Source: an uncultured virus (IMG/VR IMGVR_UViG_3300042901_000352)
Taxonomy: Duplodnaviria > Heunggongvirae > Uroviricota > Caudoviricetes
Virus record (IMG/VR): IMGVR_UViG_3300042901_000352
Length of the DNA stretch: 64,000 nt
Direction: 5' to 3' (one strand)
Below the pieces are notes generated by a model. It ran no database searches. It was not told where the DNA came from and worked only from the letters and a program-made list of their open reading frames with translations. Of this stretch, positions 3,150-51,504 are shown in pieces (the stretch's first letter is position 1; each line of letters begins with the position of its first letter). Both the position numbers and the translations under genes were made by a program.

Positions 3150-3158
3150 TGTATTTTC

Positions 3159-12771: not shown

Positions 12772-12783
12772 TAGTTAAACTCC

Positions 12784-13506: not shown

Positions 13507-13545
13507 AAAAAACTCCTAAATAAGATTCAACACGGCCCTAATTAT

Positions 13546-14007
13546 TTAGGAACCGCGACCAAAAGACACTTTAGATGCTTTTTCAGAGAAAAGGGGCATC
13601 CTTGGATCATTTTCGCGTAGGAAGTTGTTATCAACAGACTCCACAGACGCTCTGGACATATTAGCATAGTATTCCTTACGAGAATTTGAGTTCTCGACAG
13701 TAGTCTTACACAGAACAAGTCCACCAATTTCAATCAAACCTTGGGGCTTTAATCCAAAGGCAGCAAAATCAGACAATAACTCAGGATGGTCTTCCGCTTG
13801 ACAAGGTATCCAACCTTCGCGTTTAGCTTTCGCCATATTCGCGGGATCAGGTACACCCATCATAGAAACTCTCTTCCAGTGGAACACGTAACCGTCCTGT
13901 GGGTCTGGAGCTGGCAAATCATGCGCAGGTTTCCATGATACTGGACGAACTTCTTTATCACGTGTTTCTGTAGAGCGTGGTGCTCTGTCAATTTGTACGT
14001 TAGCCAT
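13546..14007 (-). CDS. Conserved head-module protein
   Basis: WKP, REGW.P, IGGLVLCK motifs. Confidence 0.65.
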   Translation of the reverse strand: MANVQIDRAPRSTETRDKEVRPVSWKPAHDLPAPDPQDGYVFHWKRVSMMGVPDPANMAKAKREGWIPCQAEDHPELLSDFAAFGLKPQGLIEIGGLVLCKTTVENSNSRKEYYANMSRASVESVDNNFLRENDPRMPLFSEKASKVSFGRGS

Positions 14008-14899
14008 TGAGTTGTTGCTCCTTTACTTTATACTTGGCGTAAACCTCTAAAGGTACTCCAAGTCTTTTTGCTATAGCGACTTCAGATGTATTCAAAGTGA
14101 CTTTCTTTGGTGCAGTAGTTCTACCTACCGATGCCACTGGTGAAGATTTCTTCTTGTCGAAGTTCTTTGGGAATACTTCCCGTATGCGGGAGTCTACACG
14201 CTGATAATATTCATCAGAAGTAGGGTCTACACCGGATTTAACCAATTTTTCGTGCAGTCCATAAGCGAAGGCGGTCATCTCTTCATCTTTACCAAACCAT
14301 GGATTCTTTCCAGCCCAGCTCTCGGCTTTATAGTCTCTTGGTGGCGCTTCTGGCACTGATGGTGGGATATATACATCATTACTTTGTGGTTGTAAAGCTT
14401 TTTGTTGTACAGGCGGCACCAAGTTAGCTAACTGCCGTTTTTGATTGGCTAATTCGCTTAACTCTTCCTGTGCTTCAAGTACTCCATCTGTATCACCCGT
14501 TTCAAAAGCTTGACGGTATTTATCCTGCGCAATTTTATGTGCGTATTCTAAACGGCCTTGAGCTTCCTTCGTATACTCCTGATGCCCCCAGTTAAGTGTG
14601 CTTTTTAACTGTTCGTTTTCTGCAAGAATAGCCTGAGCAATACGTATAGCTTCAGCATTTTGTCTTTCTAACGCTTCTTTCTCACGTTTAGCATCGTGGT
14701 ACTTATGGTTTATTTGATTGATGCGCTTTTGAACACCTTTAGAGTATGATTCTAACTCATCATCGTCATCATCACCATCATCAGCTAGTTTAGTTCTGCC
14801 TCTATCTTCTTCAGGTGTGTCGTCTACAATATCTACCTCATAGTCATCACTACCATCAATATCTACATCGATATCTTCATTTTCATATTCTTCAGCCAT
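14000..14899 (-). CDS. Capsid scaffolding protein (phage A)
   Basis: Acidic N-terminus, coiled coil, WAGKNPWFG, IAKRLGVPLEVYAK. Confidence 0.75.
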   Translation of the reverse strand: MAEEYENEDIDVDIDGSDDYEVDIVDDTPEEDRGRTKLADDGDDDDDELESYSKGVQKRINQINHKYHDAKREKEALERQNAEAIRIAQAILAENEQLKSTLNWGHQEYTKEAQGRLEYAHKIAQDKYRQAFETGDTDGVLEAQEELSELANQKRQLANLVPPVQQKALQPQSNDVYIPPSVPEAPPRDYKAESWAGKNPWFGKDEEMTAFAYGLHEKLVKSGVDPTSDEYYQRVDSRIREVFPKNFDKKKSSPVASVGRTTAPKKVTLNTSEVAIAKRLGVPLEVYAKYKVKEQQLNG

Positions 14900-15138
14900 T
14901 AGCTATTACTCCTTTCTTCTTCAAGACTAAATGTATAGTTGTTGCGAACGAGTTGGTCGTCACGAGTAGCTTTACCAGCCCACATGTAGCACTCTTCTAA
15001 AGAAGTAAATGCTAAAGATATGTATCTGGTGTTAGCCAATGTATACAATTTATCTTCTATAGCTGTAAATAGCGATTTAAGTTCTGCTTGATGAGTTTTA
15101 GATTCTTCATCATATGCAATATAATCAAATCTACTCAT
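14899..15138 (-). CDS. Acb2/Tad1-like helical hairpin protein (candidate immune-signal sponge)
   Basis: RYISLAFTSLEECYMWAGKA resembles the R..SLA.TKLEEA.MW hairpin. Confidence 0.6.
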   Translation of the reverse strand: MSRFDYIAYDEESKTHQAELKSLFTAIEDKLYTLANTRYISLAFTSLEECYMWAGKATRDDQLVRNNYTFSLEEERSNS

Positions 15139-15146
15139 TTATCCTC

Positions 15147-15545
15147 CTAGTATGCGCGGCTAATGCCACGTGGGTCAGCTACAGTACCCTCAATCATATC
15201 GTCATTTACCAAGATAAACTCTTCCCCATCAACAGAGAATCGTGACCCACGATATGCTCCAATTAACACGAAATCACCTTCTTGACACCAAGGACCTGTA
15301 GGGAACTTTACTTCATCTTTATAGGCCATAACACCTACTTTAAGCACCATACAAACTACAGCACCAGCCTCTTCTTTCTTTTTAAAAGCGTCTGGCATTT
15401 CAATACCGCTTGCTGTTTTGTCCACTATCTTTGGTTTAATCAATAAAAGCTTATAACCTACCGGATCTGGTAAGCGGTCAGCTAATGACTCTCCCTTTTG
15501 AATAGTGGCATCCGTATCTATATTTCCTATATCTTTGGTACTCAT
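15147..15545 (-). CDS. groES: GroES-like co-chaperonin
   Basis: PVGYKLLL, KTASGI, VLKVG, GDFVL, ILVNDD. Confidence 0.85.
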   Translation of the reverse strand: MSTKDIGNIDTDATIQKGESLADRLPDPVGYKLLLIKPKIVDKTASGIEMPDAFKKKEEAGAVVCMVLKVGVMAYKDEVKFPTGPWCQEGDFVLIGAYRGSRFSVDGEEFILVNDDMIEGTVADPRGISRAY

Positions 15546-15730
15546 TAATTTTCTTCCTCGATTTTTTGCAGGTCTTTTAAACGATTAAGAGCTAAGGACA
15601 GACCCGATAAAGTCCCTACCAATAATTTGTAAGCTGGGAAGTCCTCAACACGCCCTTTTGCAAGGGCGTCCATGTGAGCAACTATCTCATCTTCAAGATC
15701 TCTACGCAGTACATCTAGTACAGTTTTCAT
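15545..15730 (-). CDS. Small conserved head-module protein
   Basis: 61 aa helical; G..EDF..YK.LVG. Confidence 0.6.
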   Translation of the reverse strand: MKTVLDVLRRDLEDEIVAHMDALAKGRVEDFPAYKLLVGTLSGLSLALNRLKDLQKIEEEN

Positions 15731-15758
15731 TCTTTACCCCATCGCTGTCTTTCTTCAA

Positions 15759-16100
15759 TCATTTAGCCTCCTGTGGTGTTGCGTAAAGTGGTATTACTTC
15801 TTCAAGTTCAAAGTCTATATCAGGTAGCACTTGTTGAATTACATATTCTCCCGAAGCTCTATTTATTATTTTCCAAGCTGCTGCCCCAAGCTTTAAGAGT
15901 TCTTTACGTTCTTCACGCATTCTATGTCTTAGGAGACGTTGTATTTCATTATTTAATTGGTCTTTAGCAAAAAATACAGACCTCAACTGCTCAGCATCAG
16001 ATAGCATAAAATAATGGTGTGTATAACCAATAACAGGGTGTTCACCCGCATCATTTTTATATAAAGAAACTAATCTTGTGTTGTCATCTAAGTTGCTCAT
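15759..16100 (-). CDS. Hypothetical protein
   Basis: AWKII..GEY..VIPLYATP resembles 30968-31336. Confidence 0.55.
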   Translation of the reverse strand: MSNLDDNTRLVSLYKNDAGEHPVIGYTHHYFMLSDAEQLRSVFFAKDQLNNEIQRLLRHRMREERKELLKLGAAAWKIINRASGEYVIQQVLPDIDFELEEVIPLYATPQEAK

Positions 16101-16128
16101 TTAGCTTTCTCCAAGTTCTTTTCCATTT

Positions 16129-18633
16129 TTAACCCATAGGTGGTTGTGGAGGTGGTGCAGGTGCTGGCGCTCCTTGTGGTGGTGGTGGTGGTGGTGGTGG
16201 AGGTGCTGCTGGTGCTCCTTGTGGTCCTGCTTGAGGCATAGGTGGAACCTCGGCTTGTCTTTGAGCTTCTATTTGTTGAGTCGCCATATCTAACCCTTTA
16301 AATAACCCTTGAACCTTAGCGTCTTCACCTTGAAGCATTAATTTAGCCTCATTGTTTAGCATCGCTATCTCTTTACTAGCGTCAATCTTCTTAAGCTCGA
16401 TCTCTTTCTTATCATTGAGTTCTTGCTGTTTAAGTTGTAACTCTTTCTGCTGCATCTGTACTACAGGGTCTTGCGCTTGCTGTTGAGCCGTTTGTTGGGC
16501 TTGTTCAGCTTGGTTCGCTTGTAGTAGTTGTTTAGCTGCATCAGCAGATAGTTTTGCCAGTTGTACAGCCATTTCAGGGCTTAACTCTGTATCTTCTGGA
16601 GGTAGTGTAGTACCTAGCTGAGTCTCTATACCTCTACGGTATTGGAAGCCCACATGCTCCATGATATGTGCCATTAACGCCTGTTTTATGACAGAAGCTT
16701 GAGGGTTTTGCCCCATTGCTGCCGCTATCTTAGGGTCAGTTAGCATACTGTTATGCACTGTTAAGTGCGCATCGTGATCTTGTTCTATGAACGCTTTGAC
16801 AGGTTTAGCTTTAAGAATGTCTATATTCTCTGTTACAGGATCAGTTGGCTTTTGATCTTCTTCCACAATAACGATCTTATCCGCATCTTTAATACCCATA
16901 ACTTCAAGCATTTGACGATGTAATACAGGTAAGTTGTATATTTGTGGAGATTGTTGAGCTAACTGGATAGCTGCTTGGTACTGAATGATCCTTTGTGCCA
17001 TAGTACTAGCGTTCGGATCAGAGACTGGAATAATATCAACTTTATCATAGTCTTCTTTCTTAGCAGATGGTTCTGCATCAAACTCTGGCATGTAGTCATA
17101 TGCAGGGGCAGTATAGTCTCTTACCAACGCTGCAATTAACTTAAACTCTTGCTCCATCGAATAGTGAACACGAGCCTGAACAGCTGACATCACCTTTAGG
17201 GTTCTTTCCAATATAGCCAGTGTAGTACCTACTGGCGCCTCGCCATTCATGTTATCCAGCTTAACATCAGCAACTGCTGCTAATCTACGGCCTTCTTCTA
17301 CTACGTTCTGTAATAGTGTGAACAGTGTTTGGCTTGGCTCTTTATATGGGAGCGGTAAGATGTTGTCTTTAATATTAGAAGATGGTACATCAACGTCTCG
17401 CCATTCACCCGGCATGATCGGAGTGTCATCACCTTTAATCCTAAGACCCCTAGACTTTAAACCACCGGGTAGGTTACTTAGTGTACCTGCATCAATTAAC
17501 TGTCTGACAATAGAAGTTGCAGATTTAGCAAAGCCACCAATAAGATGAATAAGCCCGTAGCCATAAGCACCGAAACCGGGGATATAAGTATACTGTACAA
17601 AGTGTTGCTTAGCTTGTTTAAGAGGGTCATGTTCATCCCAGTTACGTCTAATGGATAAAATCTCTTGTGTACCTTGTTCAATGGTCACAACATATGGCAG
17701 GGCTATGCCTGTCTCTTCACCTGAGTCGTCATCAACATCTTCAAACCCAACAAGATCTAACTCAACCTGCATCTCTAGGAGTCTGTAGCGGTTGTCATAT
17801 GTGGCTTTATACCCATCAGCTTCGTCTTTGCGCTTCTGAATATCGTCAAGGTCTTTTGTTGGTTCACCAAGGTCTATATCACGATAAAACTCAGCATATT
17901 GTAGCTTCTTAACATCGTTCTTGGTCTTACGCATGACATGAGTAAGTCTTTCTGCAGTACGCGCATCAGATGCTCCATAGGGTATATAAAGGTCTTCTGC
18001 AGGTACAAACATGCTTACCTGACGGTTTAGTGAGGGGTCAAAATATACTTTCTTAAACGCGGCTCCTGCCAATGCTAAGGACCACAACATCTTTTCGTGT
18101 TCAGGTCTAAACTCAGTCATTTTTTCCGTAAGCTGGTAGTTCATGTCTTCTACAACACGTTCTGCAGACTTCTGGGTATCAGGGTCATCTTTGCCGATTA
18201 TGCGGGCTTTTACAGGTCCCTGAGCAGGAAATGTTTCAGAAATCATCTCAGACTGAAAGCGGATAGCCGCTTCTGTTAGCATGGGGTGGTATACACCACA
18301 AGCACCTTGCCAAGGTTCTGAACGCTCTTCAATTTTTAAACCTAACAAATCTAACCCATCTACATAGGTAGACTCCCACTCTTTACGAGCGTTCTTGTCA
18401 TTGTTAAAGTCATCCATCAAATCAGCTACTAACGAGGCCATATCCGCCTCATCCATGTACTCCGCTAGGTTCGCATCAAACCCCGGCTCTTGTTCCATCT
18501 CTACATCAACCTCAGTCTCAATAGGGTCCATCGGATCCCCTATATCAACCTCAATCGGTGCTTCATCATCTTCTGTTAAAAAGGGACTCTGCGGTTGCAT
18601 TGCCTTAAATATGTTGTTTGGGACTTCAGCCAT
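16129..18633 (-). CDS. Portal protein (phage A)
   Basis: 834 aa after TerL; PWQGAC, FPAQGPVK, RQLIDAGTLSNLPGG; Gln/Pro-rich tail. Confidence 0.9.
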   Translation of the reverse strand: MAEVPNNIFKAMQPQSPFLTEDDEAPIEVDIGDPMDPIETEVDVEMEQEPGFDANLAEYMDEADMASLVADLMDDFNNDKNARKEWESTYVDGLDLLGLKIEERSEPWQGACGVYHPMLTEAAIRFQSEMISETFPAQGPVKARIIGKDDPDTQKSAERVVEDMNYQLTEKMTEFRPEHEKMLWSLALAGAAFKKVYFDPSLNRQVSMFVPAEDLYIPYGASDARTAERLTHVMRKTKNDVKKLQYAEFYRDIDLGEPTKDLDDIQKRKDEADGYKATYDNRYRLLEMQVELDLVGFEDVDDDSGEETGIALPYVVTIEQGTQEILSIRRNWDEHDPLKQAKQHFVQYTYIPGFGAYGYGLIHLIGGFAKSATSIVRQLIDAGTLSNLPGGLKSRGLRIKGDDTPIMPGEWRDVDVPSSNIKDNILPLPYKEPSQTLFTLLQNVVEEGRRLAAVADVKLDNMNGEAPVGTTLAILERTLKVMSAVQARVHYSMEQEFKLIAALVRDYTAPAYDYMPEFDAEPSAKKEDYDKVDIIPVSDPNASTMAQRIIQYQAAIQLAQQSPQIYNLPVLHRQMLEVMGIKDADKIVIVEEDQKPTDPVTENIDILKAKPVKAFIEQDHDAHLTVHNSMLTDPKIAAAMGQNPQASVIKQALMAHIMEHVGFQYRRGIETQLGTTLPPEDTELSPEMAVQLAKLSADAAKQLLQANQAEQAQQTAQQQAQDPVVQMQQKELQLKQQELNDKKEIELKKIDASKEIAMLNNEAKLMLQGEDAKVQGLFKGLDMATQQIEAQRQAEVPPMPQAGPQGAPAAPPPPPPPPPQGAPAPAPPPQPPMG

Positions 18634-18659
18634 CTGTAGATCCTTAAGTTGTTTGTTCG

Positions 18660-20174
18660 TTAGTAGTAATTAGCACGTTTCTTATACATCCAGCTATCTT
18701 CATCAATATCCTTATCTTTAGCAGATCCAATAAAGCCCCCAGACCTAAACCTAGCAAGAGCTAAAGTTACGGCGTCCACAAAGTCATCATTCCTACCTGC
18801 TGGAAACGAGGCAATCTCATTAATTACTTCATCAGCCCATCGAGTAAGAGGAGCCCATACTTTACCAGAAGCAAAAATATCAGCCACCGCATTAAGTCTT
18901 GATATCTTATCTTGTCCACGTGATGGTGTAAACTCTTGTACAGGTATGCCCATCCGTCTTAACTCGTAAATTAGTGGAGCTCCTGAAGCTTTCTTCTCAA
19001 CAATAACCCCATCAGGCTCCCACTCTTGATAAAACTCTAACGTGCGTTGCTTTAAATCAGGAAACTCTAACCGCTCTCGCCATGCTTCCAAAAGTATTAA
19101 ATTAGGCTGATCACCATCTTCAGGATTGTTCCAAACACCAAATATAACAACAGCACTATAGTCAGCACTCGTCTTTTTTTCAAACGCAGTATCCATTGAC
19201 ATTAGTAGAAAGTCACAATCAGGCGGATCTTTTTCCTTCCATTCTTGCCACCACTCCCTTTTAATTATCGCCGTTGCTTCAGACGTAGGTTGCTGTTGGT
19301 ACTGTGCTTGCCATTTACTAGCTGGAATTTCGTTGCGTACCGCCTCTAGTTCCTCAATGTTCCAAAACTCAGGCCATAGTGGCTTGCCACTGGGTAATAT
19401 AGCAGGGAACTCAACAACCTCCCATTTATCTCCGCCATTCATAGCAGAGTGTTCTAAAATCTGTCCTGTAAGATCTCGCATTGACCATCGGGTCATAACG
19501 ATAATAATGGCTCCCCCAGGCTGTAACCGCTGTCTTGGACCTGATGAATACCAACTAAAGACCTTATCGTAAACTTCAGGGTTAAACTGAGCTATAACGG
19601 CTTCGCCTTCTGAATGAGGGTCATCAATAATGAGCAAATCAGCACCCCGCCCAGTAACGGTGCCACCAACACCAGCAGCAAAGTACTCGCCATTAAAGTT
19701 GGTGTTCCAGCGTCCCGCTGCCTTGGAATCCGTGCGGAGCTCGACTTCTGGGAATATTCGTCTGTATTCATCTGAGTTTACCAAGTTACGTACTTTACGA
19801 CCAAAACCCTCAGCTAACTCAGCAGTGTTGCTTATCTGCATTATCTTTTTCTTAGGAAACTGCCCTAAGAACCACGCGGGTAATAAATAAGACGCAAACT
19901 CAGACTTGGTATGCCTCGGCCCAAGATTAATAATAATTCTTTTCTTTTCCCCACGAGCAACAGCCTCAAAAAGCTTCGCTATACGCCTATGGTGCGCACC
20001 ACTAATAAAGTCAGGCCACACTGAATTAACAAAGGCTATATAGTCTTTTCTGGCATGGGCTCTTTCTTTACGGGTATTTAATTCTTGTATAACATCTAAT
20101 AAGGCAGCTTTTTCCGCTAGTGGCGCGGCACTGATAAGGGCATCAAAATCTTCTGGGCTAAAGTCTTCAAACAC
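18660..20174 (-). CDS. terL: Terminase large subunit (phage A)
   Basis: PRHTKS Walker A, LLIIDDPH, MTRW, YQQQP, FPAGRNDDFVDA. Confidence 0.95.
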   Translation of the reverse strand: MFEDFSPEDFDALISAAPLAEKAALLDVIQELNTRKERAHARKDYIAFVNSVWPDFISGAHHRRIAKLFEAVARGEKKRIIINLGPRHTKSEFASYLLPAWFLGQFPKKKIMQISNTAELAEGFGRKVRNLVNSDEYRRIFPEVELRTDSKAAGRWNTNFNGEYFAAGVGGTVTGRGADLLIIDDPHSEGEAVIAQFNPEVYDKVFSWYSSGPRQRLQPGGAIIIVMTRWSMRDLTGQILEHSAMNGGDKWEVVEFPAILPSGKPLWPEFWNIEELEAVRNEIPASKWQAQYQQQPTSEATAIIKREWWQEWKEKDPPDCDFLLMSMDTAFEKKTSADYSAVVIFGVWNNPEDGDQPNLILLEAWRERLEFPDLKQRTLEFYQEWEPDGVIVEKKASGAPLIYELRRMGIPVQEFTPSRGQDKISRLNAVADIFASGKVWAPLTRWADEVINEIASFPAGRNDDFVDAVTLALARFRSGGFIGSAKDKDIDEDSWMYKKRANYY

Positions 20175-25065: not shown

Positions 25066-25304
25066 TGGACACTAAAAACTTATTAGCAACAATTACACTC
25101 ACAGCTCTTTTTACTTTCAGCTTAGGCTATGTAACAGGACAACAAAACGACAATTCGAAGTTCACTATACACAAGACACGCTCAGGTATGTTCATCGTAG
25201 ATGACACAGCTCAAAGCAAAGGCAAAATGGAGTCCAAAATATACGAAGTGCTAGAGCTACCGACCAACCGAAAGAGCTTTCAAGAAGGAGATATATCACA
25301 ATGA
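25065..25304 (+). CDS. Small N-terminally anchored/secreted protein, homologue of 63165-63386
   Basis: Hydrophobic N-terminus; IHKTRSG.FI and IY.VLELP.N. Confidence 0.7.
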   Translation: MDTKNLLATITLTALFTFSLGYVTGQQNDNSKFTIHKTRSGMFIVDDTAQSKGKMESKIYEVLELPTNRKSFQEGDISQ

Positions 25305-25900
25305 GAATCTTAGTAGGGTGTGAAGAGTCACAAACAGTAACGAAAGCATTCCAAGCATTAGGTCATGAAACATATAGTTGTGACATTGTACCGTGTTCAG
25401 GAGGGCATCCCGAATGGCATATCAGAGGGGATGTATTTGATGCGATAGATGAGGGCGGTTGGGACATGGGTATTTTCTTTCCTCCTTGTACATACCTCAC
25501 CGTGACGGGCAACAAGTGGTTTAAAGATCAACCGCCAAGAAAGTCTGGTGCTTTAGTTGGACAGGCTCGAAGAGATGCTAGAGAAGATGCGATCTTTTTC
25601 TTTATGCGATTGATGACCTGTAATATACCTAAGATTGCCATAGAGAATCCGATTGGTATTATGACATCAAGATATAGAAAACCCGATCAGGTGTTACAGC
25701 CTTGGATGTTTGGACATAATGAACAGAAAGCAACATGCCTGTGGTTAAAGAACTTACCGACCTTAACACCGACAGACATAGTAGAGGGGAGAGAACAAAA
25801 GCTACACTTACTACCGCCGTCTAAAGACAGAGCAAAGCTAAGATCAAAAACATATCAAGGCATAGCATCAGCTATGGCACAACAATGGGGATCACAATGA
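25301..25900 (+). CDS. Phage DNA cytosine methyltransferase-like protein
   Basis: ILVGCEESQ, SCD, FPPCTYL, IENP, KATCLWL, RSKTY. Confidence 0.75.
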   Translation: MRILVGCEESQTVTKAFQALGHETYSCDIVPCSGGHPEWHIRGDVFDAIDEGGWDMGIFFPPCTYLTVTGNKWFKDQPPRKSGALVGQARRDAREDAIFFFMRLMTCNIPKIAIENPIGIMTSRYRKPDQVLQPWMFGHNEQKATCLWLKNLPTLTPTDIVEGREQKLHLLPPSKDRAKLRSKTYQGIASAMAQQWGSQ

Positions 25901-26152: not shown

Positions 26153-27145
26153 ATGACACCACAAGAATTAATGACAGCCTTCCCACACTATACGTTCGTA
26201 GTACACGAAAAAAAGAAAGGAGAACCGCTAGAACATGGGGTTATTCCAATGAGCGTATATATAAGGTATGAGATTGAAAAAGATATGCTGTATATCGACT
26301 CACGTTTTATAACGCAAGAGTACCTGGGCGAAGAAGCAGTCATATGGAAGAAGACCTCAGCATACTGTGGAACGCTTTTGAAACGCATAGAGGCAGGGAC
26401 AGGACGCAGGACTAAACCGATCTATTGCCTAGCATTTGACTTGACGTATGGAGAGCAAAAAGAAGATGTAACCTCACGTATACGCAAAAGAAAAGGTAGA
26501 CCATTACAGGTAGCCAACACAGCCAAATTGACCGCTAGAGCTAAAGAAGTAGCACCGAGATTAAAGAGTTTAAACACACGACTAATGGAGTGGCAAAAAG
26601 AATACGAACATCTACCCATATGGAGTGATCTATCTGAAGCAATAAAAGAGGCTAAGAAGTTCTATGAAGACAGCTACGATATGCTCAGTATGGGAAAACG
26701 TAAACGGGTAATGCCTGATCCAAGTCCGATCAAGACTATTAAGAAAGAGATCATATTACCGAAGCACAAGATACTATGCAAAGGACTCGATGAACTCATA
26801 TCACGCGATACGGACGCAATATTTAAAAACATAAGGGAGTTTAGAACAGATGAAAAAGGGGTGACTACACTATACGAAAAGGAATTCAGACCGATACTGC
26901 CTAGAGAAGAGTGGATCGCAAGATACGAACAGGGGACAACCTTGGACGGGAAGACAGTATACAAGCACTTGTATGTATTGGTAAGTGTATTAAAATCAGG
27001 GGCTTATGAGAATGAGGACATCAAAGACTATAAGAGGGATGTTCGCTTTGTGCAGATGTGTCAAAAGCAAGTTGGAAAAGCAGCACACCGCTGTGCATTA
27101 TTTGACTTAACAAAAAAGCTTGACAATGAAATCATTAACGACTAA
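26153..27145 (+). CDS. Hypothetical protein (330 aa)
   Basis: Long ORF, no motif recognised. Confidence 0.7.
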   Translation: MTPQELMTAFPHYTFVVHEKKKGEPLEHGVIPMSVYIRYEIEKDMLYIDSRFITQEYLGEEAVIWKKTSAYCGTLLKRIEAGTGRRTKPIYCLAFDLTYGEQKEDVTSRIRKRKGRPLQVANTAKLTARAKEVAPRLKSLNTRLMEWQKEYEHLPIWSDLSEAIKEAKKFYEDSYDMLSMGKRKRVMPDPSPIKTIKKEIILPKHKILCKGLDELISRDTDAIFKNIREFRTDEKGVTTLYEKEFRPILPREEWIARYEQGTTLDGKTVYKHLYVLVSVLKSGAYENEDIKDYKRDVRFVQMCQKQVGKAAHRCALFDLTKKLDNEIIND

Positions 27146-27360: not shown

Positions 27361-27875
27361 AAAGCGAAGCAAAGCGCAGCGTACCACAGCAAAGCCAAGC
27401 GGAGCCAAGCAGAGCGAAGCACAGGCTACAAAGTAGCGTATTAGTAATTCTAAGAGTTATTAATGCGGTATTCGTACCACAAAGCGAAGCATAGCCCAGC
27501 GAAGCAAAGCAGAGCAAAGCACAGGCTACAAAGTAGCGTATTAGTAATTCTAAGAGTTATTAGTGCGGTATTCGTACCATATAGCGCAGCGCAGCGTACC
27601 ACAGCAAAGCCAAGCGGAGCCAAGCAGAGCGAAGCACAGGCTACAAAGTAGCGTATTAGTAATTCTAAGAGTTATTAATGCGGTATTCGTACCACGCAGC
27701 GAAGCCGAGCGGAGCATAGTAAAGCATAGCGAAGCACAGCTTAGTCTAGCAAAGCGCAGCAAAGGCTACAAAGTAGCGTATTAGTAATTCATGTAGTTAT
27801 TAATGCGGTATTCGTACCACAGAGCATAGCAGAGCGAAGCCTAGCGCAGTTTAGCCGAGCGGAGCAAAGCAAAGC
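27361..27875 (+). ncRNA. Array of (NN-AGC)n pentamer tracts separated by four 55-nt hairpin repeats; putative guide-RNA array
   Basis: Repeats at 27426-27480, 27526-27580, 27641-27695, 27766-27820; tracts of 13, 9, 12, 14 and 11 pentamers. Confidence 0.85.
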
Positions 27876-27914
27876 CCCATAAGGGGATAACATTAACCAT
27901 AACAGAGAAATAAA

Positions 27915-28496
27915 ATGAAAAAGATTACAGTTAAATTAACAGGCACATCACCAATCTTATTATCAGCAGACAGACTTGCAGATCCTTTAGACGAAGCAAC
28001 GATTGCCCACAAAGAACTTACATCTAAACGTAAGAAAACAGAAGACGATCACTATGCTATAGCTAAATCACAATGGCGTGGTTTGTTGTACTGGGATGAT
28101 AAATTAAATGTTGTGTTACCTACACAAAACATAAGGGCTGCGATTGTTAATGGTGGCAAGCTAAACAAATTAGGTATGCAGATTAAACGTGGAACAATGA
28201 TGGAGAATGAACTATCTCCTTTAGAATACGGTAAGAAGTTAACTATAGAACAGTTATGGGAGCAACGCTATTTAGATAGACGTAGCGTAGTGGTATCACA
28301 AGCAAGAGTTATATGTTACCGCCCTAAATTTGTTTCCTGGAATACTACCTTCAGTTTATTATATGATGAGAATGTATTAGATGTTAACCAGTTGAAACAG
28401 TCTATAGATAATGCAGGGATGTTCGTAGGTATCGGTGGATTTAGACCTGAAAAAGGTGGTACATTTGGTAGATTCACAGCGGAGATATTAGCATGA
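27915..28496 (+). CDS. Stand-alone Cas7/RAMP-like RNA-binding protein
   Basis: ITVKLTGTSPILL first strand, VLPTQNIRAAI (cf. IPGSSIKGAL), C-terminal Gly loop GIGGFRPEKGGTFGRF. Confidence 0.75.
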   Translation: MKKITVKLTGTSPILLSADRLADPLDEATIAHKELTSKRKKTEDDHYAIAKSQWRGLLYWDDKLNVVLPTQNIRAAIVNGGKLNKLGMQIKRGTMMENELSPLEYGKKLTIEQLWEQRYLDRRSVVVSQARVICYRPKFVSWNTTFSLLYDENVLDVNQLKQSIDNAGMFVGIGGFRPEKGGTFGRFTAEILA

Positions 28497-28954
28497 TAAC
28501 TGACAACAATACATACATAGAAGAAGTAGATAAACCTCATTTAAAAGTAGCTAATGACATTGCACTCATGTTTGACTATGGTGATGTTGTAACAAACGAA
28601 TGGTTAGCGGACAACTTTAAACTTAAATTGCCTACTTATGGGTCTAAAAAACAATTTGAAGCTTATGCTTTTGAGTTCCTAGGTATGCTGGAAGGCGTGA
28701 AGAAAAGTCTTTTAGAAGATCATAAGATGTACCTTACTAATGTAAGAGGTAAAGGCTACCTTATAGTGCTACCCAACAGACAATCAGATGTTGCGGTAGA
28801 GAAGTTAAAAAAGTCTTTATCTTCTGAAATTAATAAAGCCTTCCGAGCAATAACTAATGTGAACGAAGCTCTATTAACTAACGAAGACATACTGAAGAAA
28901 GATTTAAATCATGGGCGAGTAGCTGCCATCGCAGCCTTTAGCCGACACAAATAA
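28493..28954 (+). CDS. Winged-helix-like protein coupled to the RAMP gene
   Basis: LTNVRGKGYLI wing motif; ATGA overlap. Confidence 0.6.
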   Translation: MITDNNTYIEEVDKPHLKVANDIALMFDYGDVVTNEWLADNFKLKLPTYGSKKQFEAYAFEFLGMLEGVKKSLLEDHKMYLTNVRGKGYLIVLPNRQSDVAVEKLKKSLSSEINKAFRAITNVNEALLTNEDILKKDLNHGRVAAIAAFSRHK

Positions 28955-30090: not shown

Positions 30091-30265
30091 TGATGTTGCA
30101 AAAACTTATACTTACAAGTTTGTTACTTAACTTTGTTTTTGGAATAGGTGGGGTGGTATGTCTGGGTACGAAGTATCACAAATTAGAAAAACTGTGTTGG
30201 TTTTTACTAGGTTTAAACGGTGTTTTTATTTTGGTGGCGGTGTTAATTAAGGTGTGGGGTGTGTG

Positions 30266-30652
30266 ATGAATGATGAAGTAGTAATAAACCTATTTAAGAA
30301 AGTAGCAAGGATCCTAGAGGACGACAAGCAATACGAATGGTTAGCTGATGAGGTCAAAGATTACTTAAATGAGATATATGTTAATAAAGCATTTGAACCT
30401 GAGCAAGAGCCTGTGGCTTGGATGTGGAAAAAACACACGGCGGGAGGGTGGTTAGATGTTGTTAGTATAGATAAACCTACTGCTAATGCACATCAAATAA
30501 ACATTAGACCCCTCTACTACACAGCACCGCAAAAACGTGATCCTTTAACCGATGAAAATGTATGCGCGATATTATTAAAGAAAGAATGGAAAGGTTTTGT
30601 TGATCTGGTTCGTATTATAGAAAAAGAACATGGCATTGGAGTTGGGGAATGA
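30266..30652 (+). CDS. PEQEPVAW-family hypothetical protein
   Basis: PEQEPVAW..PLY..HGIG. Confidence 0.65.
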   Translation: MNDEVVINLFKKVARILEDDKQYEWLADEVKDYLNEIYVNKAFEPEQEPVAWMWKKHTAGGWLDVVSIDKPTANAHQINIRPLYYTAPQKRDPLTDENVCAILLKKEWKGFVDLVRIIEKEHGIGVGE

Positions 30653-30975
30653 GTAAAGAAAGAGAGTTGTTGGAAAAGATTTTAAATACAGGTTGGTTAA
30701 ATCATGAGTTAAGTTGTGAAGTAGAAGCGATCCTCGCCCAGCCTGAGCAAGAGCCTGAGCCTCTTTTAGCAGAAACAAAGATTGAATGGTATGGGAAAGG
30801 GTTTAGACAAGGGGTCAATGAGTTTGCACCACCCAAACCCTTAACAGAAGATGTTATATATGCTCTTGATAAAGAAGGGGTTGTTGAAAATATGGACGAT
30901 CATCAAGTCAGATACGTCATTAGATGGATAAGAAGAGTAGAAAAAGCACATGGCATTGGAGGTGGTAATGAGTAA
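30649..30975 (+). CDS. PEQEP-family hypothetical protein
   Basis: MSKERE..LAQPEQEP..EKAHGIGG. Confidence 0.65.
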   Translation: MSKERELLEKILNTGWLNHELSCEVEAILAQPEQEPEPLLAETKIEWYGKGFRQGVNEFAPPKPLTEDVIYALDKEGVVENMDDHQVRYVIRWIRRVEKAHGIGGGNE

Positions 30976-31336
30976 AGAAAGAGAGATGATTGAGAAATTA
31001 TGTAGTTTTCAAATGACATATAGTGATTGGCTTTTATTAATAGCAGACGCTGAAGAACTTCTCGCCCAACCTGAGCAAGAGCCTGTGGCTTGGAAAGTAA
31101 TAGATGGAACTAATGGGGAGTTTATGTTTTCTAGGGTTAAACCGATGGAACGAAATTACAAATTTGATGTGGTTATACCTCTATACACATCACCACCAAC
31201 CCGTGAGCCTATAACTGGCAAAGAGATATCAAACGGGTTTAAAGCTGATGATGATGCCACACATCCCTACAGTTATTGGGCAGGTGTTGAATTTGCTGAG
31301 AAGCATCACGGCATTGGAGGTGGATGCGATGAGTAG
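30968..31336 (+). CDS. PEQEPVAW-family hypothetical protein
   Basis: MSKERE..LAQPEQEPVAW..EKHHGIGG. Confidence 0.65.
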   Translation: MSKEREMIEKLCSFQMTYSDWLLLIADAEELLAQPEQEPVAWKVIDGTNGEFMFSRVKPMERNYKFDVVIPLYTSPPTREPITGKEISNGFKADDDATHPYSYWAGVEFAEKHHGIGGGCDE

Positions 31337-33339: not shown

Positions 33340-33802
33340 GATTTAATCCTTTTATAAAATTTTGGCATAATATAGCATATGTTGCTACTTGATCTGCTCT
33401 GTATGCTTCTGACTTGAGAAATCCTGCAAGTTCTTCTGAAAGTTCGCTTCCATTTTCATCTGATCTAGTAATTTCTGTGGTATCACCAGTTTTGGCTGTG
33501 GTGCAACCACCACTTTTCCTGCCGTTGTCGTACATGCGCTGAGACTTAAAAGAATCACGCTGACTATTAATAGCATTGATCGCTGATACATTTGCGTCCT
33601 CTAGTTCTTTATTAAGCTGTATAGCCTTTATATTGGCTTTATTTGCTTCTTCAGTAAGAATTGCAAGTTGAAGTTCTGCTTCTTTATTCATACTTGCAAT
33701 ACTGTCCGACATCTCAATGATTTCAGCCTTGTCTATCTTATGAGAAATAAAATATCCAGAGCTAAAACCAACAGCAAAAACAATAGCTAATAAATATGGC
33801 AT
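33326..33802 (-). CDS. Rz-like inner-membrane spanin
   Basis: N-terminal TM, coiled coil, RADQV..LCQ end; lysis cassette. Confidence 0.75.
   Translation of the reverse strand: MPYLLAIVFAVGFSSGYFISHKIDKAEIIEMSDSIASMNKEAELQLAILTEEANKANIKAIQLNKELEDANVSAINAINSQRDSFKSQRMYDNGRKSGGCTTAKTGDTTEITRSDENGSELSEELAGFLKSEAYRADQVATYAILCQNFIKGLNRDRP
33385..33591 (-). CDS. Rz1-like outer-membrane lipoprotein spanin nested in Rz
   Basis: Signal peptide with lipobox LSAC, Pro-containing body, GAGGA RBS, alternative frame inside Rz. Confidence 0.8.
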   Translation of the reverse strand: MYQRSMLLIVSVILLSLSACTTTAGKVVVAPQPKLVIPQKLLDQMKMEANFQKNLQDFSSQKHTEQIK

Positions 33803-33963
33803 TAGTCTTTCAACATAACGCCAAGACCGCCTGCAACTCCACCTGCTAATAATAGAAGTTGATCTACTGGCTTATCTAAAAATATAAGCACAGAACCTAT
33901 AATTGCTGTAACAACCCAGATTAAACCACGTTTAGTTGATGCTTCTGACCAATCTATTTTCAT
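33802..33963 (-). CDS. Putative holin (53 aa, 2 TM)
   Basis: Hand translation MKIDWSEASTKRGLIWVVTAIIGSVLIF..LLLLAGGVAGGLGVMLKD*. Confidence 0.7.
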   Translation of the reverse strand: MKIDWSEASTKRGLIWVVTAIIGSVLIFLDKPVDQLLLLAGGVAGGLGVMLKD

Positions 33964-36098
33964 CTTGATACACCCATACCAAGTAAGCCGCCCATCACAG
34001 GAAGCGCTTGTTTAATGCTATTAGATAATGAATATTGCTCTGGAAACATCATCTTTGATGTTGGAACTTCTGCTTGTAATGCGTTTGCACCTGCTTTATA
34101 TCTTGAGCCGAGATCAAATGCTCCTTTTGCTATTGAAGCGCCAGGTATTGATCCAAGCATCTTTCCTATTGCTGGTGCATTTTGCATTAACATAACTCCA
34201 GTATTAGAAGCATTAACTGTACTTGCAGCAGGTGGTTTATTAATATAAGCGCCAACCTTTGCCATGCTATACAGCTTTTCTATTTCATCTGTATTATAAA
34301 ATGCTGATAATTTTTCAGTACCAAACTTATCTAATGCTTTCTTAAATGCATCAGGTCTAAATTCAGCATCACCAGCAGGATTAACTCCAAGTGCTGCATC
34401 TTCTAAATGTTGACCAACTTGCGCTTTAGCTTGTTGAAATGCATCAGGAGCTTTATCTTGCAAGAAAGCCGTTAATCCTTTTACTTGATCTGTGTCGCTG
34501 TTTGATAATATGTGTTTCTTAACAAAAGTATCATTGACAGCGTTATTATTAACAACATCATCAAGAGCTGGTATCCTTCTTAATGTTGCAAAATGATCTG
34601 CTGCTGCTTTTCTTGCAGTATCAAATAATGCTTTTGTATCTTGACCAGAGCCTTCAACAATATCTGCATTGTTTAAAGCATCACGAACATGGCTAATTGC
34701 TAATGCTGCGTTCTTATTGCCTGCTGCATTTGCTGTTCTTTGTGCGTTACTAAACACCGTATCAGCTTGAACTAAATTATTAACATTTAATGGAATCTTA
34801 CCAGATGATATGTCATTCAACATGTTTCTAATGTCATTAGGTAACTGACCACCAAGCATTTCTTGATCTAGCTTATCATTAGCCATTTGGCTAAACTGTT
34901 GCGTATTAACTTGAGCATAGCGACCTTCAGAATTTCTTGCTGCTTTGTACAAGTTATCAATAACAGCCTTTTGCTCATTATGATATTGCTCTAATGGTGA
35001 CATTATAGATTTACCAGCAGCATAAGGCTCTTGAGATCCAGATGATAGTTCATCTAATAAACCACGCATCTTTTGACCTTGCTCAACAAAACGATTACTT
35101 ATTGATGGAATAAGACCACGCAAGTTTCTTTCTTGTGAGAACTGCTCAGGAGTTCTTGTAATCTGACCTAGTGTTGGTTTTATACCTAAATTTTCAAATT
35201 CTGTTTTTCTTACTAATGCAGCAGCATCTGGTTTAACACCAGTTTTTATGGAACTCATTATTGATGATTTTAAACCAGATAATGTTTCTGGTGACATTCC
35301 AGTTATATCAATTCCGCTATCTTGTATTGTTTTTAAGATTGCTTCATCTGTCATTTCATTAGCAGTTCTTTGTACAACTTCTTCTGATGCAGGTTTTAGC
35401 AATCTTGCAAATGGTGCTGCTAATGGCTTTAATACCTTACCAACTAAAACACCACCTGCCCCACCAGCATACCCTTCTAATCCTGATATTGAGCGTTGAT
35501 TTGCATTGCCTGGTGTTGTTAAATAGTTTTGTAATCCTCCTAACAATGCAGCACCTCCAACAGTGGCACTTGCTTCTGGTGCAACCATAGCTGCTGGAAG
35601 TGCATTGATTACATTACCTGTAAACTCACCAACCTTTGAACTTGTTGGAGCATTTTTCATCCACTCTTGTTCTGCTGCAACTTGTTCTCGTTGATTTTTT
35701 AACCATTGTGCATCTTTAGTAAATGGCAAAAGTTCATTAAGACCAAGCATTGCTTTATTACCAGTGGCTTCAATACCTCTCGCAAAGTTAAGCAATGGAC
35801 TGTCTGTATTCTGTGGTTCAGGTTGACTAGCTTGGATAATCTTATCTTTTGTACCGCTAAAAGAACCTTTAGCAACTTGACGATCAAGTTCTGCTTGCAG
35901 TGCATCAGCGTTTTGTATATCACCACTCTTACGCAACTTATCTATCTCAGCAGTCAATTGATCTGGTGTTGAGAATGTTGACTGTAATGTTGGAGCTAAT
36001 GAATCTATTTTTTTGTAGATCCTTAATGCTAGGTCTTTATCACCAAGCTGATAAGCACGTTCAGCATCTGCTTTTAATTCTTCAATATTATCCATCAT
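33960..36098 (-). CDS. Large DNA ejection/injection protein
   Basis: 712 aa helical Ala/Gly-rich, PTLGQIT; last gene of podovirus-type tail operon. Confidence 0.65.
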   Translation of the reverse strand: MMDNIEELKADAERAYQLGDKDLALRIYKKIDSLAPTLQSTFSTPDQLTAEIDKLRKSGDIQNADALQAELDRQVAKGSFSGTKDKIIQASQPEPQNTDSPLLNFARGIEATGNKAMLGLNELLPFTKDAQWLKNQREQVAAEQEWMKNAPTSSKVGEFTGNVINALPAAMVAPEASATVGGAALLGGLQNYLTTPGNANQRSISGLEGYAGGAGGVLVGKVLKPLAAPFARLLKPASEEVVQRTANEMTDEAILKTIQDSGIDITGMSPETLSGLKSSIMSSIKTGVKPDAAALVRKTEFENLGIKPTLGQITRTPEQFSQERNLRGLIPSISNRFVEQGQKMRGLLDELSSGSQEPYAAGKSIMSPLEQYHNEQKAVIDNLYKAARNSEGRYAQVNTQQFSQMANDKLDQEMLGGQLPNDIRNMLNDISSGKIPLNVNNLVQADTVFSNAQRTANAAGNKNAALAISHVRDALNNADIVEGSGQDTKALFDTARKAAADHFATLRRIPALDDVVNNNAVNDTFVKKHILSNSDTDQVKGLTAFLQDKAPDAFQQAKAQVGQHLEDAALGVNPAGDAEFRPDAFKKALDKFGTEKLSAFYNTDEIEKLYSMAKVGAYINKPPAASTVNASNTGVMLMQNAPAIGKMLGSIPGASIAKGAFDLGSRYKAGANALQAEVPTSKMMFPEQYSLSNSIKQALPVMGGLLGMGVSR

Positions 36099-47974: not shown

Positions 47975-47993
47975 CTTAATTACCTACTATAAT

Positions 47994-48935: not shown

Positions 48936-48969
48936 TGTTTTTCTCTTTTAAATTAAATTACAAAAGCGG

Positions 48970-49017: not shown

Positions 49018-49023
49018 AGTATC

Positions 49024-51477: not shown

Positions 51478-51504
51478 TTTAATTAGCCTTTTATATGTGT
51501 ATGC

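What the first reader, a model, noticed from the sequence alone, without database searches (positions are those of the whole stretch)
27361..28954. Candidate non-CRISPR RNA-guided system: pentamer-coded RNA array plus stand-alone Cas7/RAMP-like gene
Seen: four near-identical 55-nt repeats (CTACAAAGTAGCGTATTAGTAATTCTAAGAGTTATTAATGCGGTATTCGTACCAC) separate five tracts made of 59 pentamers. Each pentamer has 2 variable bases and a constant triplet (AGC 50 times, AGT 3, ACC 2, terminal AGG 4). All segments are multiples of 5 nt. A 193-aa ORF with RAMP hallmarks (first strand TGTSP, LPxxNI helix, C-terminal GIGG..GTFGRF loop) starts 40 nt downstream. No cas1/2/3/5/6/10 is present in the window. Known: Cas7-family RAMPs polymerise on guide RNA with fixed periodicity. 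Inference: each subunit grips one AGC and presents the NN bases, so each tract is a guide with a non-contiguous code. From memory this resembles the reported viral VIPR architecture (alternating GGY/NN); here the constant triplet is AGY, which would be a variant.
Basis: partly seen in the sequence, partly recalled or inferred. Interest (0 to 1): 0.95.

Follow-up and report, generated by a model that had tools for sequence, protein, structure and literature searches.

The report
Phage VIPR guide-RNA system, AGC-coded variant
This phage locus is a member of the recently described VIPR family of RNA-guided DNA-silencing systems, but its guide RNAs are built on an AGC scaffold instead of the usual GGY, and the two protein residues that read that first base have changed with it.

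Summary
A 193-aa ORF follows 39 nt downstream.

The ORF is a full-length homologue of the solved SUSP1 Vipr protein (PDB 36pp, E 5e-37, about 39% identity). Its predicted fold matches Csm3/Cas7 backbones. The next ORF is homologous to the gene that follows vipr in SUSP1. It is not a new kind of system.

What differs is the scaffold triplet.
- All 20 distinct contigs whose Vipr has Ser/Ala/Val at SUSP1 position 17 (all 19 whose gene reaches position 177 have Gly there) carry AGC/AGT arrays.
- None of the 49 array-bearing loci with His17 plus Asp/Glu177 does; 43 have GGC/GGT as the dominant triplet.
- His17 and Asp177 are the residues reported to read the first G in the SUSP1 structure.

The 55-nt repeat is the vrRNA 3' tail. 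It forms hairpins supported by compensatory changes.

Natural targets were not found, and expression could not be tested. Non-canonical VIPR triplets have already been reported as a class. Verdict: a new variant of a known kind, of moderate interest.

The parts
27361..27480 (+). vrRNA 1: 13 pentamers (27361-27425, NN = AA GA AA GC GT AC AA CA GG CA AG GA AC) plus the 55-nt 3' tail (27426-27480). Tail hairpins: H1 27425-27429/27433-27437, H2 27438-27449/27455-27466, possible H3 GGUA-UUCG-UACC 27467-27478.
27481..27580 (+). vrRNA 2: 9 pentamers (27481-27525) plus tail copy 2 (27526-27580, 2 mismatches to copy 1).
27581..27695 (+). vrRNA 3: 12 pentamers (27581-27640) plus tail copy 3 (27641-27695). 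Its last 10 units are identical to the last 10 of vrRNA 1, so part of the guide is duplicated.
27696..27820 (+). vrRNA 4: 14 pentamers (27696-27765) plus tail copy 4 (27766-27820, 4 mismatches, all in the H2 loop).
27821..27886 (+). Fifth tract: 11 pentamers (27821-27875) that lack the 55-nt tail and end in a short hairpin CCCC-AUAA-GGGG (27875-27886). The relatives parsed whose array lies upstream of vipr also end it with a tract lacking the standard tail: a short hairpin in the 97-100% relatives, L012, L013 and L029, and a T-run in L122 and L131.
27915..28496 (+). vipr: 193-aa RAMP protein, a homologue of SUSP1 Vipr. Ser17 and Gly175 occupy the positions of SUSP1 His17 and Asp177. Arg136 and Arg177 correspond to the conserved SUSP1 Arg138 and Arg179.
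28493..28954 (+). vap1-like accessory gene (153 aa, phrog_5926). It overlaps the vipr stop by 4 nt. It is homologous to the gene directly downstream of vipr in SUSP1 and in LESphi2.

Best explanation
The region 27361-28954 is a phage-borne, type-II-like VIPR (Viral Interference Programmable Repeat) locus: an array of five vrRNA genes, then vipr, then a vap1-like gene, all on the + strand. Most likely the array is transcribed with or just ahead of vipr and cut into RNAs of about 100-125 nt. Each RNA has 9-14 pentamers followed by a structured 3' tail. One Vipr protomer binds per pentamer. It sequesters the constant AGC and exposes the two variable bases, so that the filament reads double-stranded DNA through a gapped code (NN, skip one, NN...). 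It then blocks transcription of a competing mobile element, helped by Vap1. The difference from characterised VIPRs is that the scaffold triplet is AGY rather than GGY. The two residues that hydrogen-bond the first G in SUSP1 Vipr (His17, Asp177) are Ser/Ala and Gly throughout this clade. I read that as a matched protein-RNA specificity switch. Shown here: the anatomy, protein homology and fold, the clade-wide AGY/NN pattern with hypervariable NN, tail structure by covariation, the transcribed strand, and the coupling of residues 17/177 to the triplet. Inferred from the SUSP1 work: filament assembly, the one-nucleotide skip rule, DNA silencing, and the role of Vap1. Not established: expression, processing sites, natural targets, and whether the AGY and GGY systems are truly orthogonal.
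For: Protein. It matches PDB 36pp_D 'SUSP1 Vipr protein' at E 5e-37 over residues 1-192 and phrog_4652 at E 5e-56. tblastn finds 135 phage records, including phiSUSP1 at 39% identity. The AlphaFold model has pLDDT 94.5, and its top PDB matches are Csm3/Cas7 chains of type III and VII complexes.

Accessory gene. The 153-aa ORF matches the ORF after vipr in SUSP1 (E 2e-16) and in LESphi2 (E 4e-23).

RNA. Across the clade there are 67 unique tracts with 790 units. Information per position is 0.20 and 0.07 bits for NN, against 1.82, 1.77 and 1.22 bits for AGC. Tract lengths are 9-14 units, with one of 17. This fits the published 9-16 repeats followed by an invariable 3' tail. Phages with a 100% identical Vipr (L001, L003, L004) share 0 of 5 tracts with the window.

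Tail. Helix 2 is 99.6% paired, with 8 of 12 pairs changed on both sides. Helix 1 is 96.3% paired, with 2 of 5. Overall 95% of cells are paired, against 30-54% when partners are slid by 1-3 columns, and 0 of 500 shuffles reach the observed covariation score. Conserved U-G pairs at columns 16-43 and 25-34 would be A-C on the other strand, so the + strand is the RNA strand.

Co-variation. All 20 distinct contigs with Ser/Ala/Val at position 17 carry AGC/AGT arrays; the 19 whose gene reaches position 177 have Gly there (L013 is cut short). They span 51-100% identity to the window protein. Of 69 His17 (one Asn17) + Asp/Glu177 loci, 49 had a called array: 43 with GGC/GGT as top triplet and 0 with AGC. 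Among 103 cluster representatives, 58 are non-His17 + Gly177, 44 are His + Asp/Glu/Thr, 1 is Asn/Asn, and none is mixed. The structure preprint states that G1 is read by H17 and D177 and G2 by R138 and W178 (section read). R138 and R179 are conserved in every locus examined.

Phage context. Terminase, portal, capsid, tail and endolysin genes are present, and the relatives are IMG/VR viral contigs.
Against: No natural target was found. In a local set of 765 kb of related phage DNA, the one-nucleotide-skip reading did no better than the controls. Guides with a hit of at least 80%: 6 with skip 1, 10 with skip 0, 3 with skip 2, and 9 with the guide read backwards. Four exact-pattern scans of viral contigs and one of metagenome contigs gave 0 hits. 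A second metagenome scan gave 7 hits, all on contigs of 49-57% G+C and without a match to the two remaining guide units; I read them as chance.

The residue-triplet coupling is essentially one evolutionary event (one clade against the rest), so the counts do not represent independent trials.

Helix 3 of the tail has no covariation support.

The fifth tract lacks the standard tail, so it may not be a working vrRNA.

No convincing promoter was found upstream of the array; the best + strand match, at 27107-27135, scores 9 of 12.
Confidence: 0.85

Rival explanations
1. It is a VIPR homologue, but the AGY triplet is neutral drift tolerated by a permissive protein. On this reading there is no true specificity switch, and AGY- and GGY-type RNAs are interchangeable.
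For: The coupling of residues 17/177 with the triplet separates one clade from the rest, so shared ancestry alone could produce it. Position 178 is Phe/Tyr in both groups. A few units inside AGC tracts depart from AGC (14 TGC, 7 ACC, 7 ATC and 1 GGC of 790).
Against: A at position 3 is kept in 98% of 790 units, and G occurs there in about 0%. This holds across proteins down to 51% identity. None of the 103 representatives has a mixed state (His with Gly, or Ser with Asp). The first VIPR preprint lists GGY>AGY among the scaffold substitutions tested in SUSP1 and says in its text that perturbing GGY motifs abolished silencing. I saw the legend and the text, not the figure.
Confidence: 0.25
2. 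It is a VIPR homologue that reads targets by a different rule from SUSP1. The skip length might differ, the A or C of AGC might contribute to pairing, or the target might be RNA rather than double-stranded DNA.
For: The one-nucleotide-skip reading found no excess of matches over controls in 765 kb of related phage DNA. Six exact-pattern collection scans found no convincing target.
Against: The searchable DNA did not include the unknown host or its resident elements, and collection scans accept only exact matches, so the negative result is weak. The single outlier fits the one-nucleotide-skip rule: L012 vrRNA 1 against an HTH_17 gene in L013, 23 of 26 NN positions. Pentamer period, tract length and the conserved Arg138/Arg179 are the same as in SUSP1.
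Confidence: 0.1
3. The locus is a decayed or non-functional remnant, or the periodic DNA is a structural or coding repeat unrelated to guide RNA.
For: No expression data are available. The ORF list shows small ORFs across the array on both strands.
Against: vipr and vap are intact and conserved in every relative whose contig covers them. A 5-nt period cannot be coding. NN positions vary between near-identical phages while AGC and the tail stems are maintained by compensatory changes, which indicates selection on an RNA.
Confidence: 0.03

Closest known systems
SUSP1 VIPR, type II (bioRxiv 10.64898/2026.04.26.720920, Results and several Methods sections read; structure preprint 10.64898/2026.04.26.720927, abstract and one Results section read; PDB 36pp)
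   Same: The Vipr protein is homologous over its full length (E 5e-37, about 39% identity). A vap1-like gene lies directly downstream. vrRNAs are tracts of 9-14 pentamers, each a constant triplet plus hypervariable NN, followed by an invariable structured 3' tail. The last unit before the tail ends in G in both (GGG in SUSP1, AGG here). Both are carried by phages.
   Different: The triplet is AGC/AGT, not GGY. His17 is Ser and Asp177 is Gly. All five tracts lie upstream of vipr, whereas SUSP1 has one upstream and three downstream. The tail sequence is unrelated and folds as two or three simple hairpins; a pseudoknot is reported for the SUSP1 clade. The G-loop carries a 4-residue insertion (EKGG) that LESphi2-type proteins share.
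Pseudomonas prophage VIPRs (LESphi2 and Medea1 here; the P. fulva clade in the preprint)
   Same: These are the closest named phage homologues (46% and 45% identity). LESphi2 has the same EKGG G-loop insertion and three arrays upstream of vipr.
   Different: Their arrays are NNGGC, and they keep His17 and Asp/Glu177.
Non-canonical VIPR arrays reported in bioRxiv 10.64898/2026.10.21.760802 (passages read) and the 'related consensus' repeats NNNGG, YNNNG and NNNNG in the first preprint's Methods
   Same: Both describe 5-nt arrays beside Vipr-like folds whose fixed triplet is not GGY. WGT/NN would include AGT/NN, and YNNNG would formally include YNNAG.
   Different: AGC/NN is not named in the text I could read, and Figs S10 and S17 are not held. 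Neither text links the triplet to the G1-reading residues.
Class 1 CRISPR backbone subunits (Cas7/Csm3)
   Same: RRM/RAMP fold with a G-loop; Foldseek E 7e-6 to 2e-4, TM 0.38-0.54 to Csm3 and type VII Cas7 chains. One protomer binds per fixed step of guide RNA.
   Different: About 10-15% sequence identity. The period is 5 nt, not 6. There are no CRISPR repeats or spacers, no other cas genes, and no sign of an adaptation module.

Membership tests
VIPR (Viral Interference Programmable Repeat) systems | A Vipr protein: a minimal single-RRM RAMP homologous to SUSP1 Vipr | tested here: met
   36pp_D at E 5e-37, residues 1-192. Model pLDDT 94.5 with Csm3/Cas7 fold matches.
VIPR (Viral Interference Programmable Repeat) systems | vrRNA genes made of tandem 5-nt units with a conserved triplet and a hypervariable NN, 9-16 units long | tested here: met
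   Five tracts of 9-14 units. NN carries 0.07-0.20 bits per position against 1.2-1.8 bits for the triplet, over 790 units.
VIPR (Viral Interference Programmable Repeat) systems | The conserved triplet is GGY (canonical definition) | tested here: not met
   50 of 59 units are AGC and 3 are AGT; GGC occurs once in 790 clade units. The authors allow 'a related consensus', so this bars canonical status, not family membership.
VIPR (Viral Interference Programmable Repeat) systems | An invariable, structured 3' tail after each tract | tested here: met
   Four 55-nt copies. Helices 1 and 2 are supported by compensatory changes. The fifth tract has only a short hairpin.
VIPR (Viral Interference Programmable Repeat) systems | An adjacent vap accessory gene (vap1 in type II) | tested here: met
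   The 153-aa ORF is homologous to the ORF after vipr in SUSP1 (E 2e-16) and in LESphi2 (E 4e-23). That the SUSP1 ORF is vap1 is inferred from its position and from the preprints' description.
VIPR (Viral Interference Programmable Repeat) systems | vrRNAs are expressed and co-purify with Vipr | not testable with these tools
VIPR (Viral Interference Programmable Repeat) systems | Targets are read by the one-nucleotide-skip code in competing mobile elements | tested here: inconclusive
   No enrichment over controls locally. Five exact scans were empty and one returned chance-like hits. One outlier reached 23 of 26 between relatives.
CRISPR-Cas (Class 1) | A CRISPR repeat-spacer array together with cas genes (cas1/2 adaptation, Cas5/Cas6/large subunit) | tested here: not met
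   No such models matched 85 ORFs. The array has a 5-nt period with 55-nt separators, not repeat-spacer units. No Rfam family matched with significance: the only hit at E <= 1 was rydB, 16.5 bits against a gathering score of 50.

The most novel reading that the evidence does not exclude
AGY/NN vrRNAs paired with Ser/Ala17-Gly177 Vipr proteins form a naturally orthogonal VIPR 'dialect'. The first scaffold base and its two reading residues switched together, so this clade neither loads GGY-type vrRNAs nor lends its protein to them. That would insulate the phage from cross-talk and from the decoy 'solo' vrRNAs that satellites use against SUSP1. It would also mean scaffold specificity can be moved with two substitutions, which would give independent channels for multiplexed programmable silencing.
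Probability: 0.45. Interest if true: 0.7.

Novelty: new variant of a known kind. Interest (0 to 1): 0.5.

Why it matters
VIPR was described only in 2026. It is presented as an ancestral relative of CRISPR RAMPs with a gapped recognition code.

This locus belongs to a sizeable natural clade: 58 of the 103 cluster representatives retrieved. In that clade the supposedly locked scaffold triplet reads AGY, and the exact residues reported to read G1 have been replaced. That yields a concrete two-residue hypothesis for how Vipr recognises its scaffold. It also makes orthogonality between VIPR systems directly testable, and it bears on how phages might avoid having their Vipr protein hijacked by foreign vrRNAs.

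It does not change the overall picture of how VIPR works, and non-GGY arrays have already been noted in print.

Tried and rejected
Natural targets.
- I converted the window's guides to NNx patterns and scanned viral contigs: guide 4, 12 units; the shared core of guides 1 and 3, 10 units; guide 5, 9 units with two degenerate positions. All returned 0 hits.
- A guide conserved in three close relatives also gave 0 hits.
- In metagenome contigs, guide 4 gave 0 hits. Guide 5 gave 7 hits, all on contigs of 49-57% G+C and with no match to the two remaining units, so I rejected them as chance.
- A pattern search with up to 3 mismatches in five related phage records gave 0 hits.
- I scored 65 clade guides against 765 kb at skip 0, 1 and 2 and with the guide reversed. 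Skip 1 showed no excess.

Other attempts.
- A megablast of the locus against named phages found no match.
- Pfam gave nothing for Vipr or Vap, and Vap has no solved relative.
- Rfam gave no significant family for the array or tail.
- For solo vrRNAs, an exact 20-nt tail scan hit 12 contigs: 11 already known to carry vipr and one cut at the contig end. No vipr-less copy was seen. No other tail or array lies in the window.
- Host identification failed. The nearest cultured relatives of the structural genes infect Pelagibacter and other aquatic bacteria at 47-56% identity. One 71% Vipr relative sits on a MAG contig titled Dechloromonas sp.. This was too loose to choose genomes for a target search.
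- Sequencing runs and earlier findings were unavailable.

Rejected readings. A coding repeat is excluded because the period is 5. A CRISPR array is excluded by the lack of repeat-spacer structure and of cas genes. Minus-strand transcription is excluded because the conserved U-G pairs would become A-C.
Full report
**1. The observation**

| Feature | Coordinates | Detail |
|---|---|---|
| 55-nt repeat, copy 1 | 27426-27480 | 0 mismatches |
| 55-nt repeat, copy 2 | 27526-27580 | 2 mismatches |
| 55-nt repeat, copy 3 | 27641-27695 | 0 mismatches |
| 55-nt repeat, copy 4 | 27766-27820 | 4 mismatches |
| Tract 1 | 27361-27425 | 13 pentamers |
| Tract 2 | 27481-27525 | 9 pentamers |
| Tract 3 | 27581-27640 | 12 pentamers |
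| Tract 4 | 27696-27765 | 14 pentamers |
| Tract 5 | 27821-27875 | 11 pentamers |

- The 59 units comprise 50 NNAGC, 3 NNAGT, 2 NNACC and 4 NNAGG. Each NNAGG sits immediately before a 55-nt repeat.
- In-phase AGC runs reach 8 in the array and never exceed 2 elsewhere in the window on either strand.
- The 193-aa ORF is at 27915-28496. A 153-aa ORF at 28493-28954 overlaps its stop.

**2. What the protein is**

- Pfam gives nothing for the 193-aa ORF. PHROGs places it in phrog_4652, function unknown, at E 5e-56.
- Against the sequences of solved structures it matches 36pp_D, 'SUSP1 Vipr protein', at E 5e-37 across residues 1-192.
- tblastn finds it in 135 phage records. The best are Pseudomonas phages LESphi2 (46%) and Medea1 (45%), Gordonia phage MakoManhole (42%) and Escherichia phage phiSUSP1 (39%).
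- An AlphaFold2 model built on 40 homologues has mean pLDDT 94.5. Its best PDB fold matches are Csm3/Cas7 subunits of type III and type VII CRISPR complexes, with Foldseek E 7e-6 to 2e-4 and TM 0.38-0.54. The fold library's cut-off date precedes the Vipr entries.
- The RAMP reading is therefore right, and the closer identity is Vipr.

**3. What is known about VIPR**

- The library holds three preprints from one group and a fourth that touches the subject.
- From the Results of 10.64898/2026.04.26.720920:
  - VIPR loci hold a vipr gene and a vap gene.
  - vrRNAs are about 100 nt, with 9-16 YNNGG repeats followed by an invariable structured 3' tail.
  - The NN bases read double-stranded DNA, with one base skipped per repeat.
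  - The complex silences transcription, and natural targets are competing satellites and prophages.
  - There are seven types, which use 'GGY/NN motifs, or a related consensus'.
- Its Methods mention alternative NNNGG, YNNNG and NNNNG repeats.
- The structure preprint 10.64898/2026.04.26.720927 (abstract, and the section read) assigns the contacts as follows:
  - G1 is read by H17 and D177.
  - G2 is read by R138 and W178.
  - Y3 is held by a pocket that includes R179.
- The October preprint 10.64898/2026.10.21.760802 (passages) reports 21 clusters of Vipr-associated 5-mers that are not GGY. Its examples are GAC, CAC, WGT and TGH.
- AGY and AGC do not occur in the text of 10.64898/2026.10.15.759431. 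AGY occurs in the first preprint only as a mutant tested in SUSP1.

**4. Locus anatomy**

- The 153-aa ORF (phrog_5926) is homologous to the ORF directly after vipr in SUSP1 (E 2e-16) and in LESphi2 (E 4e-23). By position that ORF is vap1, so this locus has the type II gene pair.
- Each tract plus the following 55 nt matches the published vrRNA plan of a variable tract followed by a tail.
- The terminal NNAGG is explained by the tail. Its last G opens hairpin 1 (GCUAC-AAA-GUAGC).
- On an alignment of 22 distinct tails from six groups of relatives, I counted pairs for a three-helix model:

| Helix | Cells paired | Pairs changed on both sides |
|---|---|---|
| 1 | 96.3% | 2 of 5 |
| 2 | 99.6% | 8 of 12 |
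| 3 (GGUA-UUCG-UACC) | 79% | 0 of 4 |

  - Overall 95% of cells are paired, against 30-54% when partners are slid by 1-3 columns.
  - None of 500 shuffles reaches the observed covariation score.
  - For helix 3, tails in L029 show what look like compensating versions by eye.
- The conserved U-G pairs in helix 2 would be A-C on the other strand. The RNA is therefore the + strand, the same as vipr.
- The fifth tract has no such tail. It ends in CCCC-AUAA-GGGG (27875-27886).
  - The relatives parsed whose array lies upstream of vipr also end it with a tract of this kind, with a short hairpin or a T-run.
  - The NN bases of this last tract differ between relatives, so it evolves like a guide. Whether it is loaded is open.

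**5. Relatives and the AGY clade**

- Searches of viral contigs and species genomes brought in 13 loci, 1 locus, 80 loci and 17 loci, some of them repeats. I also fetched four named phage loci.
- An unbiased caller for 5-nt arrays (three conserved and two variable columns) was joined to the residues aligned to SUSP1 positions 17, 138, 177, 178 and 179.

| Vipr type (SUSP1 positions 17 / 177) | Distinct loci or contigs | With a called array | GGC/GGT top triplet | AGC/AGT |
|---|---|---|---|---|
| Ser/Ala/Val17 + Gly177 (L013 is cut before position 177) | 20, window included (51-100% identity to the window protein) | 20 | 0 | 20 |
| His17 (one Asn) + Asp/Glu177 | 69 | 49 | 43 | 0 |

- Among the 49 called arrays in the His/Asp group, six were called otherwise. 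Four are register-shifted GG-type calls, one is dominated by arrays on the other strand, and one is a spurious AAT call.
- Twenty loci of that group had no array called by this strict caller. Medea1 is one of them, although a looser scan shows an NNGGY tract there.
- SUSP1 itself shows one upstream and three downstream NNGGT tracts, as published.
- In the wide protein search, 105 proteins scored E <= 1e-20. Of these, 103 are at least 150 aa and were aligned:
  - 58 are non-His17 (47 Ser, 7 Ala, 3 Cys, 1 Val) with Gly177.
  - 44 are His17 with Asp, Glu or Thr.
  - 1 is Asn/Asn.
  - No mixed state occurs.
- Arg138 and Arg179 are conserved in all loci examined.
- The two residues reported to read G1 are thus replaced together, exactly where the RNA has A in place of G1.
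- This split separates one clade from the rest, so it is one event, not many independent ones.

**6. Guide variability**

- Across the clade I parsed 67 unique tracts with 790 units.
- NN positions carry 0.20 and 0.07 bits. The AGC positions carry 1.82, 1.77 and 1.22 bits.
- Contigs whose Vipr is 100% identical to the window's (L001, L003, L004) share none of its five tracts; L002 shares all five.
- Some guides are recognisable variants of one another. Window guide 4 and an L001 guide differ at two NN positions.
- The last unit is nearly always AA or AC, and the one before it is often AA. The 3' end of the tract is therefore probably not free to vary.
- Window guides 1 and 3 share their last ten units.

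**7. Targets**

This part failed, and I report it as such.

- Under the published one-nucleotide-skip rule, the 65 clade guides scanned found no more matches of at least 80% than the controls did. The local set was 765 kb: the window, six related virus records and all loci. Guides with such a hit: skip 1, 6; skip 0, 10; skip 2, 3; reversed guide, 9.
- One hit stands out. vrRNA 1 of L012 matches an HTH_17 gene next to a Rep3 initiator gene in L013 at 23 of 26 NN positions. The homologous site in L012 itself matches at 21 of 26. My rough estimate of the chance expectation, after correcting for the number of tests, is about 1e-3.
- A second hit is only suggestive. An L029 guide matches the IKRGT-coding part of the L013 vipr gene at 20 of 24, with the first seven units perfect and in codon register.
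- Exact-pattern scans of the public collections with window guides were empty, or returned hits on contigs of 49-57% G+C that did not extend beyond the seed.
- The host is unknown, and exact matching is a blunt tool. This is weak evidence against the rule.

**8. Context**

- The window is phage DNA with 38.8% G+C.
- It holds two complete sets of packaging and head genes.
- Its right part, 31188-64000, is identical to a 34-kb virus record, G001.
- Its left part, 5.6-32.1 kb, is syntenic with a 59.7-kb record (G002, rated 92% complete) that carries the same VIPR locus.
- The VIPR locus sits among small early-type genes, downstream of a DNA methyltransferase gene (25301-25900).

**9. Verdict**

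It is not a new class.
- Its distinguishing feature is a clade-wide AGY/NN scaffold with matched replacement of the G1-reading residues.
- I did not find that link in the texts I could read. Non-GGY arrays are already reported, however, and two supplementary figures that may list this motif were not visible to me.
- I rate it a new variant of a known kind, with moderate interest.

Noticed in passing
window 1-64000 (join near 30.3-32.1 kb): The window carries two full sets of terminase, portal and major head genes: 11857-20174, and 46991-52761. Positions 31188-64000 are 100% identical to a separate 34-kb virus record (G001). Positions 5.6-32.1 kb are syntenic with a 59.7-kb VIPR phage record (G002). 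The two halves resemble different phage types (HTVC027P-like and HTVC106P-like). The window may be two phages joined, through either a chimeric assembly or recombination at a shared region.
   Followed up: partly
window 30254-31336: Three consecutive small ORFs (132, 108 and 128 aa) are paralogous and all end in ...EK(A/E)HGIG(V/G)G. A 90-94% similar copy of part of this region lies at the far end of G001 (33555-33974).
   Followed up: no
L012:2543-2607 against L013:2362-2399 and L012:2282-2319: vrRNA 1 of a 76%-identity relative matches, under the one-nucleotide-skip code, an HTH_17 (excisionase-like) gene beside a Rep3 initiator gene in another relative at 23 of 26 NN positions. It matches its own copy of that gene at 21 of 26. 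This is the only hit that clearly exceeded the controls.
   Followed up: partly
L029:2410-2469 against L013:3268-3302: A guide of a 73%-identity relative matches the IKRGT-coding stretch of the vipr gene at 20 of 24, with the first seven units perfect and skips at wobble positions. It matches its own vipr gene at 16 of 24. This recalls the published vipr-targeting vrRNAs, but it is not significant after multiple testing.
   Followed up: partly
window 27821-27886: The tract next to vipr never has the standard tail. It ends in a short GC hairpin here and in the 97-100% relatives, a hairpin plus T-run in L012 and L013, and a bare T-run in L122 and L131. It is unclear whether this is a working vrRNA, a terminator or attenuator, or a leader for vipr.
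   Followed up: partly
window 27361-27425 and 27581-27640: Guides 1 and 3 share their last ten units, including an odd GTACC unit. The 8-mer CGTACCAC inside them is also the 3' end of the tail, which hints at an origin by recombination between array units.
   Followed up: no
L018:4058-4237; L122:1311-1490 and 2091-2285: In more distant AGC-type relatives the arrays lie downstream of vap (L018, on a MAG contig titled Dechloromonas sp.) or on both sides of vipr (L122). Array position is therefore not fixed within the clade.
   Followed up: no
window 62499-63116 and 60265-62043: The C-terminal part of a 205-aa ORF gives weak Csx20-type matches (two Csx20 models, best E 4e-9 over about 48 residues, and a CARF-HEPN-Csx20 model at E 1.5e-6), and there is a weak Cas3c helicase-motif match in a phage DNA helicase. 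Both lie in the replication module of the other phage half and are probably unrelated to the VIPR locus.
   Followed up: no
window 2001-4295: Two adjacent ORFs of about 380 aa carry RCC1-like repeats (phrog_7220, E 1e-61), next to tail-associated genes.
   Followed up: no
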